From Saccostrea cucullata (Eukaryota), in the NCBI RefSeq assembly GCF_032062105.1, contig NW_026938786.1, positions 1 through 64,000 on the forward strand: a stretch of DNA of 64,000 nt. Direction: 5' to 3'. This document shows, piece by piece, positions 37,701 through 46,094 of the stretch. The first letter of the stretch is position 1; the number at the start of each line of letters is the position of its first letter. The notes below the pieces were generated by a model. That model did no database searches. It was given only the letters and a program-made list of their open reading frames with translations, and was not told the DNA's origin. The translations under genes and the position numbers were made by a program.

Positions 37701-38525
37701 TCCATGTTTAAGAACCTTTTATCCTTTCCTACTAGTATTTTTGATATTTTTGCTCTAAACTTGAAGTTTAACAAACTTTTAAAGAAATTTTAAAAATTTT
37801 GATATAAACCATAGCTATCGAACGAGTAAGTCAAGTGATATCATACTCCCATTGCTCATTTTTTTTGACATGACATTAAATTGATTACCAGCCAAAATGA
37901 CCTTTGACGTTGAACTTATGGCTTTGACCTACCTTTCAAAAAAATTATATTTAGCCGTATCCCCTGGATAATTAGTGCTAGGAGTTTACTATTTTACCGG
38001 TTTATTTCTTGTGGTAATAGTTTCTCTTGAATACAAATAATCTTTATTTGTTTTACTTGGACCCAAAACTTTGACCTTCTTTTGAAAAAAAAAATGTCAG
38101 AACTTTTGAATGCTAAATTTTGTGACTTTTACATAACATCTTTGTATTCTTTGTGAAATTCTTTTGGTCATTATCAATATTGACTCCTTGACCTTTTCCA
38201 GTTTGACTTACTTTTAAAATCTCTAACTTTGGTCATAATTATTGAAGTGCTGCTGCTTTTATTGTTTTTATTTTAATTTTAAAGGTGAACTCATTATGAG
38301 GACTTTTTGGTGCCAAACATAATTTTCTCTTGACCTTGGTGTTTGACCTGCAAACGACAACATCCATCATAAGCTGTAGTACGAGAGCACCTTTCTTTCA
38401 GAAACACATTTTTGACTTTTATTATTAACTCCCCCAAAACTTTTCCTATTTATTTAAAAATAAGTTGTAGTCTATGATATTTTTTGACAATAAGCCTTTT
38501 CACGTTAACTGCGGTCCTGTTTTTA

Positions 38526-38555
38526 GCGCATGCGTATAAATGTTTCCGGACGGCA
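38526..38555 (+). promoter_or_regulatory. Left subterminal block with NRF1-like, TATA-like and ETS-like motifs
   Basis: GCGCATGCG-TATAAA-TG-TTTCCGG-ACGGCA ends 29 bp before the transposase ATG; mirrored at 45982-46011. Confidence 0.5.
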
Positions 38556-38584
38556 TTCCAGAGTTTACATTAGCAACGTAAACA

Positions 38585-41618: not shown

Positions 41619-43308
41619 TTTGTCATTGCTATATACAATGTATAACAAAATTCAATGTATCAAATTTTAATTGGAATACACTTAATTAGTCTAGATATAT
41701 GATGTATATTCATTTTAGATATTGACAACAATTTTCACACTAATATAAAATTTTTCTCAAGACAGCTTGTCATTGAATTATTAAATTGTAACTTTCACAC
41801 AAAGAAAGAAGATTCCTCACAAAATATGAGGCATCTTGCCAGGCATTCCTACAATGGAGATATCAGAGTAGACTAGAGTATCCTGTAATTATTTTGAAAA
41901 TCTCTTGAATTGCCAATTTCACAATTTGTGTTACTTTTAAAGATATTTTGAAAATAGTTAAGAAATCACTCATACATGTTAACATTATTTGGTATCATAA
42001 GTAATGTAACCAGTATTTAATATTTTCTTCTATAAACAGAATGAGATGTCTAAAGGGGAGCAACTCTTCAATTTTAATTTTTGCATAACAATGTTATAAA
42101 AAGGCTTTCAGTATACATATGTATTTGTATAATGTTCTTACAAAAAGGTTCATCCACCGCCTGTATATCCTAACCTGTACAAAAAACCATAATAAAAGCT
42201 ATGTTTTATAAACTATATAATTCAAGAGTGCCTTATCAACCTATTGATATTATCTGGAAATTCTTTGATGTACACAAAATAATATCCATTTCTCTATTGG
42301 TTCTGAAGTACCTATTGTGAGAAAAATCTTATGATTGAAATGATGCCTTTAAATCATTTTGTATTTTAAAATATAAAAGCCCAATGAATTACATGCCATT
42401 GGATGGCATTGGTTTCTGGAATGAAATGTTAAAAATTACACAAAACAAAATTTTTAGAATACATTTTGACATAATATAAACTTGCAATTGGTGTTGCTGG
42501 TTGTTATAATTCCAAATGATTGAATTACTGTGTTCAAAATATTTTGAGTATAGGAGGTTTTGTTTATATTTAAGGTACCTAAAAAATGTTCTACACAAAA
42601 AATATGGATTAATCATACTGACAGAGAGTAAAATTTAAAAGGTCATAAAACTCAATTTTTCTTTAAATTATTTTTGTGTTATATGTTGATCTCATTTATA
42701 CTTTTAGCAGATACCATATGTTTTGAACAGTATACTACATACTCATGCAGTCTATGAAGTTGAACAGATTTAAATGTATGAAAATAAATAATATTTTGTT
42801 CTTTTAAATCAAATTTGAATTTATGTTGCAAAAAAATCCATAACAGCAAGGAATGTGATTAATGTGAAAAAAAAAATACATTGAAAAATAAATATAACCT
42901 GAATCCATATTGATTTTCCTTTCTTTCACTTTTACTATATATAGGTGCAAATGTGATTTTTTTTTTTTACAATAATCTATGCATGTGTTACCATATACTT
43001 GAACTTAAACTATACTTAAATCTACACTACCTGGATTAATATGACTTAATTATCATGCATTTGCTATTATTGAAAAAAAGATTTTAAAAGACATTTCCTT
43101 TATATTTCTGCATTACTTTGATACCCCCTAATCAACACTAATTCTTAATTATCTTCCCTTTACCCAAGGATCCTTTAATAAGGCAAGTAACTCACCCAGT
43201 GGATGGAGAAAAATTAAAAAATGTGAACAAATGTCTACAGATGACAGAAGCTGAACACTTTTTGATCATTAGGTAATGCTCACATTAGCCATTGGCTCAG
43301 GAAGTGAA

Positions 43309-45928
43309 TTAATTCTCAGTACATTTATAAAAAGGCAAGATGTGGTGAACAAAAAATTCAACTAGTTTTGGCATCATACGAGTACAGAACTCTGAGTCGA
43401 AATCAATTCTCTCTATAAAACAGTTGCTGTCCTTGGCAGCTGTCCAAACAACAAAATCACCCCAAGGACACCCCATTATTGCCATCTCTCCTTGGATCTG
43501 AGCATAGTACTTGTGGCTACGGTTCAAACGCGGTCCTACGGGTGTATTCTCCAGACAGAACCCCTCTTTTCCGGCTAGCTCATGGACCTATATGAATAGT
43601 ATAAACAAAATGTTAAAAAAATTATGTTAACTTTAAAACTGACAAAATGAAAGACATTAATACAATGTAATATGAAAAAATACCTCTTTTTCTACAATTA
43701 TTTCATTAGAGATTGAGTACGGGCACTTAATCTCCAGTACCCCTCTTTGACTCCCCAATGGCATAGACTTGTCACAAATCCACCCATCACTGCTGGCACC
43801 TAAAAAGGCATGGGATGGATAAATAGTGAGCCCTGCAGCCTCCACTGTTACATCAGAGACAGCATTCTGCAGTGTCAGGTAGTCTCTGACCGCTTCTTCC
43901 TCATGGTCCACACCCCACTGGACTGGACGAGGAAGCGTCTGATACCTGTGATGTATAGAATAATTAATATTTAAAAATATAAATTGGTTGAAATGCTGAA
44001 TTAATTTGTTTAATGTGAATTTTTACAATTATTTTTATTTATATATTTAATATTTTATTAATATTTTAATTTCCATCAAACCTTTGTAAACTGGATCCAT
44101 GTATAATTTGGTCCACAAGACTACGTGGGTTAGGTCCAGCATGTAAAACAGCTCCGAAAAGAGAACTCGTAATTCTTCCTTTGTGTAGTTCGGTCCAAAG
44201 AGAACATTTTCTTTGACCTTTAGTTCTTTCTTCAACATAGGCGCTCAAATCTTCGTCAATTGAAATTGGGATTGGCACTGTAATGATATGTATATGAATG
44301 AATCTAATGTTCATGATACATATAAAAGATATTTTATTATATACAATGTAATTCCTATTTTTTCTTACAGTTCTCATTTGACAAAATCAATGCTTTGGAT
44401 GCCATTTCCAATGGATCCTCATATGTCTCCACCTCAATCTCCCTCTCAGCTACAGGGGCATCATCTGGGATGTTCCACAAATGGCTCATACCTGAATTTT
44501 CATTTTGTTCAATAACATGAGAATCATAGAAATTAAAAGTCTGGAGTATGTTTGTATCATGTTTTAAGTAAATTGTAAATCGGCATTTAAAAATTTGTTT
44601 TCTCACATTTTCCTTCTTAAACCTAGCTGTACCTGTACTTGGGAAAATATCCTTTAAATTTCTCAGCTGAAGCAATGTAGTTTTTATGTCGAAGTCTCTG
44701 TCTGTGGTATGGCGAGGGTCAAATGAAGCATCCTCTATATCACTGGTTTCAGTGTCCATTTTATCTGCTTTTGACCTCAAGGTTTCTAATGGACCTGTTT
44801 ATATTGGTTTTATGTTATTTGCCAGTTAAAGAGCTTCAAAGTTCATATGTTTTTTGTTATCTGTTAACAATCTGACCATAAAAAATTTACTTACCAGTGG
44901 GTTTTTTAGATCTTCCTTTGGGTACTACCCATTTGCAGGGCTTACTCGTGCAGCTTTCCTGGGGCTTGATATGACTCAGTGCAAAGAGTAAACTCCCAAT
45001 GTGGCTACAGCTCTGGCCTAGCCTATTTTAAAAATATCATAGATTTTAGATCAAGTTATAATCAATGAAGTAAAAAAAAATTGTCTGCATAAAACTCTGA
45101 AAATATGCATACCCCACAGGACACTGACAATATCCATGATGTATGTTAGTCACAGACTGTCCATTCCTAGACAAACATATGTAAACTTGGTATTGGTGCT
45201 TCTTCATCGAAGCCTGGCACTTGGCGCTGATGTATATAATAGTAGTATTTATCTAAAAATCAAATAGAGAGTATTTTAAACATACCAGTTTATCAACAGT
45301 GTAACAATAACACAATTTATTAATTCTAACATTTACAAATATGAAAATGAACATATTATACTTAATAAGTACAAATGAGCACCACTATCAAATTATAAAA
45401 ATAAAATACTTATTGTATCAGAATTTCGACAGAAATAATTAACTATGTGCACTTATCACTGAAAAGGAGTACTGGATTTAGATCTATGTCTTTAACAGAA
45501 CAAAAACATTGTTTGTTTACCTCTGACACGCTAATCTCCTGGACATGGCCAGCTTCAAAATGTTTCACTGCTCTGTCCAACCCCTTAAAATTGTTCACAC
45601 TACCTCCTGTCGATTTGGGTCTCAGAATCATGAAGTTATATATATCAGAAAATGAAATGGTTGGAATCTGTGACTGGTCATGTATCTTGTAATGTACAGC
45701 GTTATAAGGTGGCAAATTCTCGTTTTCTCCTGTTGCAGGTGAGATACATTCTGCTAGGACTTCTTTAGACTTGGTCACCGGTGTTAAGTCGATCAATGGC
45801 ACTTGGCTAGTCAAAATTTCTCTAATTAGATCTTCTTTTTTCTTCTTCTTAATTTCTATTCCTTGATCGCGAGCTATTTCTTTCAGCGAATTTACCTTTA
45901 ATTTGTTCAAATTTTCGCGCTTTGACAT
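43309..45928 (-). CDS. ISL2EU accessory protein: SAP/HeH-like N-terminus, SWIM zinc finger, YqaJ/lambda-exonuclease; 8 exons, 565 aa, intact
   Basis: Exons 45928-45521, 45252-45113, 45022-44895, 44794-44633, 44491-44369, 44277-44082, 43945-43684, 43587-43309 total 1698 nt with no stops. Motifs LKVNSLKEIAR..KEDLI, YCQCPVGLGQSCSH, SCTSKPCKW, TKGQ..W..RITSS, WG..HE, GASSDG, EIKCP, YYAQIQG. Confidence 0.92.
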
Positions 45929-46094
45929 TATTGTTGACAGTGTTGCTAAGCCTAATGTCAATATCACAGGAATGCGGATGTTGCCGTCCGGAAGCATTTA
46001 TGCGCATGTGCGAGAATTATCGCGAAAAGGTTTATTGTACCATAGTCTACACATCGCAAAATTTCAATGACTTATCGTAATACATATGATGATG

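What the first reader, a model, noticed from the sequence alone, without database searches (positions are those of the whole stretch)
38492..46033. Two-gene transposon pairing a DDE transposase with an intact SAP-like/SWIM/lambda-exonuclease protein
Best candidate system in the window. Seen: eight scattered exons splice into an uninterrupted 565-aa ORF. It has a SAP/HeH-like start, a SWIM finger split by an intron (CxC..CxH, invisible in the ORF track) and full YqaJ motifs (SDG..EIK). It faces a THAP-HTH-DDE gene. Established: ISL2EU elements pair these genes, and YqaJ/lambda-exonucleases resect DNA ends 5'->3' for recombination. To my knowledge the role in transposition is untested. Inference: the element resects its donor-site break to bias repair toward homologous copying, turning cut-and-paste into net gain and possibly promoting rearrangement in this gene cluster.
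Basis: partly seen in the sequence, partly recalled or inferred. Interest (0 to 1): 0.7.

Follow-up and report, generated by a model that had tools for sequence, protein, structure and literature searches.

The report
Oyster transposon with swapped nuclease half
This is a recently mobile copy of an already described two-gene animal jumping element (ISL2EU) whose own cut-and-paste gene is frameshifted, and whose second protein, a predicted DNA-end-trimming enzyme of untested function, likely took its cutting half from a distantly related element while keeping the half that travels with the cut-and-paste enzyme.

Summary
The element spans 38492-46033, with AT outside 29 of 29 distinct ends. Eight GT-AG exons give a stop-free 565-aa SAP-like/SWIM/YqaJ protein, and RNA supports 6 of its 7 introns. 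This is a new family of the known ISL2EU group, which this scan has noted in at least six other genomes. The nuclease is under purifying selection, keeps its catalytic residues and folds like lambda exonuclease. Its role is untested, and nothing here favours donor resection for net gain or local rearrangement. One new result: the family is a mosaic. Its transposase and the partner's SWIM half group with one lineage, while the nuclease half groups with another (AU p = 0.0005-0.002, shared intron and insert). The lambda R28 phosphate-binding position is mostly His in this clade. Best reading: a transposase-linked nuclease that likely trims DNA 5' ends locally. Interest is modest.

The parts
38492..46033 (.). 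Whole ISL2EU element, 7,542 bp
   Evidence: Similarity to other genomic copies starts and stops here
38490..38491 (+). AT target-site duplication, left
46034..46035 (+). AT target-site duplication, right
38492..38555 (+). Left terminal inverted repeat, imperfect and bipartite, starting AA
   Evidence: 13 of the first 16 bases match the right end; inner arm 38521-38555 is 86% complementary to 45982-46016
45982..46033 (-). Right terminal inverted repeat
38585..38896 (+). Transposase exon 1 (THAP)
   Evidence: Pfam PF05485 E 4.7e-17; intron in RNA
39554..39734 (+). Transposase exon 2
40104..40284 (+). Transposase exon 3
40783..41618 (+). Transposase exon 4 (HTH_Tnp_4 and DDE_Tnp_4; D336, D411, E458 in the intact copy)
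41263..41268 (+). A6 run; frameshift in this copy (real mutation or homopolymer assembly error, not resolved)
   Evidence: One base fewer in 5 of 5 other copies covering the site, in 2 of 3 reads of X19 and in the X1 contig
40336..40694 (.). Nested small inverted-repeat element in transposase intron 3, with a near-identical 9-bp duplication
   Evidence: Absent from the older copy on C12240, which has the 9-mer once
45521..45928 (-). Partner exon 1 (SAP/HeH-like helices at about aa 1-45, linker, start of SWIM domain)
45113..45252 (-). Partner exon 2 (SWIM CxC)
44895..45022 (-). Partner exon 3 (SWIM CxH, conserved T..W motif)
44633..44794 (-). Partner exon 4 (linker); the inferred crossover lies in this exon or near intron 4
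44369..44491 (-). Partner exon 5
44082..44277 (-). Partner exon 6 (nuclease motif I, W348-x3-H352-x4-T-S-S)
43684..43945 (-). Partner exon 7 (YqaJ core: E401, D439, E457, K459)
   Evidence: Pfam PF09588 E 9.5e-9
43309..43587 (-). Partner exon 8 (Q-x-Q motif, stop)
43309..44491 (-). Nuclease module (exons 5-8) inferred to come from a different ISL2EU lineage than the rest of the element
   Evidence: Trees, AU tests, informative-site scan, shared intron 7 and insert
38432..38491 (+). Left piece of the host repeat that the element interrupts (continues from 46034)
   Evidence: Uninterrupted paralogues elsewhere in G000

Best explanation
This is a recently copied ISL2EU cut-and-paste DNA transposon with a frameshifted transposase in this copy, and its second protein is a predicted 5'-to-3' DNA nuclease whose SAP-SWIM half likely ties it to its own transposase and element ends, so that it would trim 5' DNA ends locally during excision or integration. 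Shown: boundaries, AT duplication, both gene structures, splicing of the family, low divergence between copies, purifying selection and conserved catalytic residues. Also shown: different ancestry of the two halves of the partner. Predicted: lambda-exonuclease fold, ZSWIM-type domain, SAP/HeH-like helices. Inferred: a past recombination replaced the central nuclease exons. The tether role is inferred because the SWIM half stays with the transposase while the nuclease half could be exchanged. Short-range rather than long-range digestion is inferred from His at the lambda R28 position. This copy would need transposase from an intact sister copy unless its frameshift is an assembly error. Confidence: about 0.97 in the identity, about 0.85 in the mosaic, about 0.4 in the mechanism.
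For: Identity: AT outside 29 of 29 distinct ends, with A next to it in 21 of 29; Pfam domains; the description in PMC4482050 and PMC4122938. Recent mobility: five other copies differ by 1.0-2.3% substitutions. The copy on C19742 has both ORFs open, 502 and 567 aa. Active nuclease: E/D/E/K kept in 105 of 107 homologues with all four columns filled, SWIM C/C/C/H in 95 of 96. Against lineage B, pN is about 0.30 and pS about 0.73, near saturation. The model of homologue P0010 matches lambda exonuclease at Z 19.6, rmsd 2.8 over 200 residues. Pairing: 24 of 37 contigs with a transposase hit have a convergent nuclease hit within 6 kb (lower bound). Mosaic: THAP (98/95) and transposase core (95/96) group with lineage B. 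Partner residues 90-279 group with B (88/91) and reject grouping with D (p 3e-5; mixture model 5e-5). Residues 281-560 sit inside C+D (100/99) and reject grouping with B (p 5e-4; mixture 2e-3). Informative sites switch from 49:21 to 13:58, reached by 0 of 2000 shuffles. Intron 7 is shared only with D, and a 5-residue insert only with C and D. Position 352 is His or Gln in all 15 loci; lambda R28A is poor on 5'-phosphate DNA and SOX R139A loses processivity (passages). Precedents: Tn7 TnsA cuts the 5' ends beside TnsB; the Harbinger Myb-like partner binds its transposase.
Against: Spy, the sister clade, mostly carries the transposase alone, so this enzyme family does not need a partner to cut both strands. 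In the wider alignment 89 of 111 homologues keep Arg at the R28 position, and so does the intact copy on C19742, so the His argument covers only this clade, and His may still bind phosphate. In the SWIM-half tree the A+B branch is not starred, and A+C+D is not rejected (p 0.11). The tree rows are tblastn projections of partly broken copies, not curated gene models. One swap event is thin ground for assigning roles to the two halves: co-inheritance could simply reflect closeness to the right end. Several transposase hits had no partner found nearby (C18125, C22135, C21846). No activity was measured.
Confidence: 0.45

Rival explanations
1. One reading: the partner resects the donor-site break over a long range, so the host repairs it by copying the element back from a sister or homologue, which gives net gain and sometimes rearrangement.
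For: Fold and catalytic residues of lambda/LHK exonucleases, which resect ends for recombination. An internal tract from another lineage with both ends retained is the kind of product that template-directed repair can give.
Against: The R28-equivalent is His or Gln across the lineages in this genome. Copy number is low. The flanks here are collinear with empty repeat copies. Recalled, not from a call: hosts have their own resection enzymes, and one-gene elements such as P elements gain copies by gap repair without a nuclease.
Confidence: 0.25
2. The nuclease is active but works on by-products or after insertion: it clears excised flanks, abortive intermediates or 5' flaps at the 2-nt insertion gaps, and is not part of the cutting complex.
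For: Conserved active site. A degradation role has been proposed for the DEDDh exonuclease of KolobokD (PMC9587614 passage). The nuclease half is exchangeable between lineages, which fits a non-specific job.
Against: The SWIM and T..W motifs are as invariant as the catalytic residues and track the transposase, which suggests targeting and not free action.
Confidence: 0.2
3. The partner is only a DNA-binding or import scaffold, like the Harbinger Myb-like protein, and its nuclease chemistry is dispensable.
For: [quoted passage not shown] RNA contigs of two runs of one study show an in-frame splice form lacking the E-x-K motif.
Against: All four catalytic residues are kept in 105 of 107 homologues down to about 25% identity and in all 15 loci.
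Confidence: 0.08

Closest known systems
ISL2EU group of the PHIS (PIF/Harbinger-ISL2EU-Spy) superfamily; e.g. ISL2EU-2/3/4_CGig of Pacific oyster and IS4EU-1_BF (PMC4482050, PMC4122938)
   Same: AT duplication at A|AT|T-like targets, THAP-HTH-DDE transposase, second ORF with a YqaJ domain of similar size (477-545 aa in three C. gigas families of Table S2), animal host.
   Different: Ends start AA (AG in sister lineages) where the group usually has GG. It is 7.5 kb against an average of about 4.8 kb. The SAP-like and SWIM parts are not named in the main texts of the four papers checked. The nuclease half has a different ancestry from the rest.
Lambda exonuclease, LHK-Exo and herpesvirus alkaline nucleases (PD-(D/E)XK, YqaJ PF09588)
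   Same: Predicted fold (Z 19.6 to 3sm4, 19.1 to 3sz4, 16.3 to EBV nuclease) and motifs W..T.S, E, D, E-x-K, Q-x-Q.
   Different: About 320 extra N-terminal residues with SAP-like and SWIM domains; His at the R28 position; no annealing-protein partner; ring formation not tested.
PIF/Harbinger two-gene elements (transposase plus Myb-like protein)
   Same: Related DDE_Tnp_4 transposase with a separate accessory gene.
   Different: The accessory protein is a nuclease, not Myb-like; 2-bp and not 3-bp duplication. In fish Harbingers the two genes evolve congruently, whereas half of the partner was exchanged here.
Tn7 TnsA/TnsB heteromeric transposase
   Same: A restriction-endonuclease-like subunit works beside a DDE transposase on the 5' ends. 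This is an analogy for how it may work.
   Different: TnsA is an endonuclease of a bacterial element and did not appear among the 50 listed structural matches. No membership is claimed.
KolobokE (Kolobok with lambda-exonuclease-like nuclease)
   Same: A eukaryotic DDE transposon that carries a lambda-exonuclease-like nuclease.
   Different: [quoted passage not shown]

Membership tests
ISL2EU (PHIS) | 2-bp AT target-site duplication, A|AT|T preference | tested here: met
   AT outside 15 of 15 left and 14 of 14 right distinct ends of lineages A and B; A next to it in 21 of 29. Five of six empty host-repeat paralogues align cleanly at the length expected for one AT. Formally, ends T...A with no duplication would read the same.
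ISL2EU (PHIS) | Transposase with THAP, HTH and DDE domains | tested here: met
   PF05485, PF13613 and PF13359 above cut-off. The PHIS residue spacing matches 336-458 with D or E allowed at the middle position. Broken in this copy, open on C19742.
ISL2EU (PHIS) | Second ORF with YqaJ exonuclease domain | tested here: met
   PF09588 E 9.5e-9 on exon 7; full-length homologues
ISL2EU (PHIS) | Terminal inverted repeats of 6-259 bp | tested here: met
   13 of 16 terminal bases match, plus a 35-bp inner arm at 86%
ISL2EU (PHIS) | TIRs usually begin GG (stated as a tendency, not a rule) | tested here: not met
   Begin AA in lineages A and B, AG in C, D and E
ISL2EU (PHIS) | Transposase falls in the ISL2EU clade against Repbase references | not testable with these tools
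   No Repbase sequences at hand; my trees hold only lineages of this genome and database homologues
Spy | Single ORF, no duplication, insertion in AAATTT | tested here: not met
   Two genes; flanks vary outside AT
PIF/Harbinger | Myb/SANT second ORF and 3-bp TWA duplication | tested here: not met
   Second ORF is YqaJ-type; duplication is AT
Lambda-exonuclease family (YqaJ) | PD-(D/E)XK fold with catalytic D, E, K | tested here: met
   Motifs in the window protein; model of homologue P0010, 52% identical, Z 19.6, rmsd 2.8, 200 aligned
Lambda-exonuclease family (YqaJ) | Motif I Arg (lambda R28) that binds the 5' phosphate | tested here: not met
   His352 in the window protein, placed by the LHK-Exo alignment of P0010; the match of that LHK residue to lambda R28 is recalled. 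Arg in 89 of 111 homologues.
Lambda-exonuclease family (YqaJ) | Trimeric ring and processive 5'-to-3' digestion | not tested
   No oligomer model and no assay
SWIM zinc-finger domain | CxC...CxH in the ZSWIM-type fold | tested here: met
   Motif at 178-190. The model of P0021 (97% identical) matches ZSWIM8 at Z 10.4, rmsd 2.2, 95 aligned, the only match of 48,161 chains with Z of 8 or more. Pfam SWIM was not hit.
SAP/HeH domain | Helix-extended loop-helix at the N-terminus | tested here: inconclusive
   Rho_N E 0.0013, below cut-off; Z 5.9 to Rho N-domain and 4.3-4.7 to SAP/LEM domains, in the range of common helical arrangements

The most novel reading that the evidence does not exclude
ISL2EU elements use a eukaryotic two-subunit transposase. 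The partner's SAP-SWIM half docks on its own transposase and ends, and a freely exchangeable lambda-exonuclease module processes the 5' ends, as TnsA does for Tn7. Lineages swap that module by recombination, and a splice form without the catalytic E-x-K could act as a built-in brake.
Probability: 0.2. Interest if true: 0.7.

Novelty: new member of a known kind. Interest (0 to 1): 0.3.

Why it matters
The element type has been described since at least 2014, and its second gene was declared of unknown function in 2015. What this locus adds is a way to test it. There is a sister copy with both reading frames open (C19742), splice junctions supported by RNA, and a natural domain-swap experiment that predicts which half of the partner confers specificity. 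If the nuclease proves to be an end-processing subunit, it would be a eukaryotic parallel to Tn7's two-nuclease transposase. If it resects donor breaks, it would be a transposon steering host repair. Neither is shown.

Tried and rejected
1) No co-fold of partner and transposase was obtained, so direct binding and the interface remain open. Two earlier scan notes predict binding; I could not check them. 2) Ring (trimer) formation was not modelled. 3) ORF2 intron 1 was not among the listed RNA joints in 8 runs (one joint row was hidden); one X5 contig reads through it. Raw-read depth over ORF2 was under about 2.5, too low to rank expression. RNA pile-ups at 40336-40694 come from the nested repeat, not the genes. 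4) Whether the A6 run is a real mutation or an assembly error could not be settled; no DNA reads of the same animal were laid. Several other copies also carry frameshifts. 5) Deletion and insertion breakpoints in seven other copies (one search returned nothing with its settings) show ordinary nested insertions and one 1.9-kb deletion with a short filler, which does not tell repair pathways apart. 6) An apparent second swap in transposase exon 3 was rejected: lineage B's projection seems to run into intron there, and A+B is still recovered, unsupported (56/69). 7) The catalytic column was mis-indexed for E-x-K; one search has the corrected positions. 8) Rows left out of trees: C12240 (partial) from all, C10707 from transposase trees, and rows under 50% filled; 14 of 27 other loci examined were used, plus C12240. 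9) Foldseek alone gave no match at E 0.001 or better for the N-terminal half; the wide search did. 10) Literature: searches found no functional test of the ISL2EU partner and no report of nuclease exchange between ISL2EU lineages. Repbase Reports and most subscription journals are not in the library. PMC5718144 and bioRxiv 10.64898/2026.08.24.746577 (passages) added nothing.
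Full report
Observation. The minus-strand gene is as described. Eight exons with GT-AG borders give 565 aa without an internal stop. The CxC and CxH halves of the SWIM finger lie either side of intron 2, and the nuclease motifs are E401, D439, E457 and K459. I laid 8 of the 24 runs listed. Their joints support introns 2 and 3 and introns 2-7. Intron 1 was not listed, but database proteins P0010 (52% identical, full length) and P0021 (6 differences in 226 residues) run through that junction. 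P0280 equals residues 238-565 exactly. P0021 and P0280 are RefSeq gene models labelled Saccostrea cucullata, so the host is likely this rock oyster; they count as independent gene calling, not necessarily independent DNA. The RNA is mostly 90-99% alike and shallow, so it shows that the family is transcribed and spliced, not this copy.

Boundaries and mobility. Nine other contigs match the left end at 98-100% and five match the right end at 98-99%, and the matches stop at the element ends. All 29 distinct ends collected for this lineage (A) and its sister (B) have AT outside, 21 of them preceded by A. The element interrupts a host repeat whose empty copies have the length expected for a single AT (5 of 6 align cleanly). 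The inverted repeats are imperfect and start AA. Five other copies differ from this one by 1.0-2.3% substitutions, two more by 3.8% and 7.4%. Exact end patterns occur 16 and 13 times in G000, against 0 for the reversed controls. It is a young, low-copy family.

The transposase is broken here. Four exons encode THAP, HTH_Tnp_4 and DDE_Tnp_4, and all three introns are seen in RNA. An extra A in 41263-41268 shifts the frame before D411 and E458. All 5 other copies covering the site have one base fewer, as do 2 of 3 reads in X19 and the X1 contig. The copy on C19742 has both frames open, and its transposase model equals P0305. An assembly error in the A run is not excluded.

What it is. Han et al. 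2015 (PMC4482050; passages and 18 rows of Table S2) define ISL2EU by an AT duplication at A|AT|T, a THAP-HTH-DDE transposase and a YqaJ second ORF, and state that the role of the second ORF is unknown. Han et al. 2014 (PMC4122938, passages) and the fish survey PMC9179366 (passages and one section) agree. Every defining feature I could test is met; the usual GG start of the repeats is not. The scan has noted the same system in at least six other genomes.

The partner is a selected, likely active nuclease. A profile-free search with P0010 found 2,779 cluster representatives at E 1e-10 or better. In 115 aligned proteins the four catalytic residues are all kept in 105 of 107 with those columns filled, and the four zinc ligands in 95 of 96. 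Against lineage B, ORF2 has pN about 0.30 and pS about 0.73, which is near saturation. The AlphaFold model of P0010 (pLDDT 87, pTM 0.55) matches LHK-Exo and lambda exonuclease best. A model of P0021 matches the SWIM region of ZSWIM8 at Z 10.4, and the first 45 residues resemble Rho-N/SAP/LEM helices only weakly. In G000, 24 of 37 contigs with a transposase hit have a convergent nuclease hit, a lower bound because only 122 of 793 candidates were scored. Three loci showed a transposase with no partner in the fetched stretch.

New result: the family is a mosaic. Seven lineages (A-G) can be told apart in G000. Lineage A is closest to B in the transposase core (70-90% against 52-71% for D) and in partner residues 90-279, but closest to D and C in residues 280-560 (63-78% for D against 49-59% for B). 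Trees put A with B for THAP (98/95) and the transposase core (95/96), where A+D and A+C+D are rejected. For the SWIM half A+B is recovered without a star (88/91), A+D is rejected (p 3e-5) and A+C+D is not (p 0.11). For the nuclease half A lies inside C+D (100/99) and A+B is rejected (p 5e-4, or 2e-3 under the mixture model). Informative sites switch from 49 B-like and 21 D-like to 13 and 58, reached by 0 of 2000 shuffles. Two characters outside the trees agree: intron 7 sits at the same codon in A and D and is absent from B, C, E, F and G, and a 5-residue insert is shared by A, C and D only. The right end is B-like. Because the genes converge, the nuclease exons lie in the middle of the element, so the simplest history is replacement of a central tract with both ends kept. 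The rows are tblastn projections of partly broken copies, and I named the groups after seeing the identity table, so the p-values are somewhat generous.

Mechanism. The swap shows that a nuclease from another lineage can serve in a family that went on moving, while the SWIM half stayed with its transposase and ends. I infer that specificity lies in the SAP-SWIM half and that the nuclease is a generic tool brought to the reaction. The position matching lambda R28 is His352 here and His or Gln in all 15 loci (the match to R28 runs through LHK-Exo and is partly recalled). Loss of that Arg weakens lambda exonuclease on 5'-phosphorylated DNA and makes SOX less processive (PMC5888420 and PMC9841436, passages). 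That leans towards short-range trimming, but 89 of 111 wider homologues and the C19742 copy keep Arg. Precedents are TnsA beside TnsB (PMC13598128, passages) and the Harbinger partner that binds its transposase. Against this, Spy elements mostly manage with the transposase alone.

The element lies between two fibrinogen-domain genes, one ending near 49.2 kb and one apparently starting near 25.6 kb, and its flanks are collinear with empty repeat copies.

Verdict. Real, correctly annotated in the main, and a new member of a known kind. The frameshift lowers it as a system. The nuclease swap, for which searches found no report, adds a concrete and testable prediction about an open question. Interest 0.3.

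Noticed in passing
window 43684-43740 (minus strand): RNA contigs of runs X3 and X5 (one study) use an earlier donor in partner exon 7, skipping 153 instead of 96 bases. This removes 19 residues in frame, including catalytic E457 and K459. It may come from another copy.
   Followed up: partly
window 40336-40694: Small element with 18-bp inverted ends and a 9-bp duplication in transposase intron 3; absent from the older copy on C12240, and abundant in RNA from other loci.
   Followed up: partly
window 18235-23168: Retrotransposon of DIRS type by its layout (label recalled): open gag-like, reverse transcriptase/RNase H and weak tyrosine-recombinase frames, with 100% identical inverted arms at 18295-18439 and 23024-23168. 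It seems to sit in an intron of a fibrinogen-domain gene.
   Followed up: partly
window 10523-11325, 16546-25634, 49220-54718 (minus strand): Tandem fibrinogen-domain genes with a PAN-like first exon; partial exon duplications at 11110-11325 and 49473-49625.
   Followed up: partly
L041 (G000:C19742), at window position 40022-40025: The intact sister copy carries a 364-bp inverted-repeat insertion with a TTAA duplication in intron 2; the copy on C1706 has a 5.4-kb insertion about 10 bases away.
   Followed up: no
L076 (C18125), L091 (C23117), L092 (C22135), L093 (C21846): Related transposases (56-77% identical in the core) with no or almost no partner match in the fetched stretch; deleted copies, contig limits or a partner-less lineage.
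   Followed up: no
G000 contigs C3202, C4703, C4880, C6734, C9490, C11757 and others: At least 12 equal-scoring, more distant YqaJ-type hits in 604-aa open frames, 30% identical: another young nuclease-bearing repeat family.
   Followed up: no
window 59259-60456: Fragmented reverse-transcriptase frames of a probable non-LTR retrotransposon.
   Followed up: no
window 33740-34743, 37300-37560, 56186-56706: Tandem repeats with periods of about 155, 30 and 28 bases.
   Followed up: no
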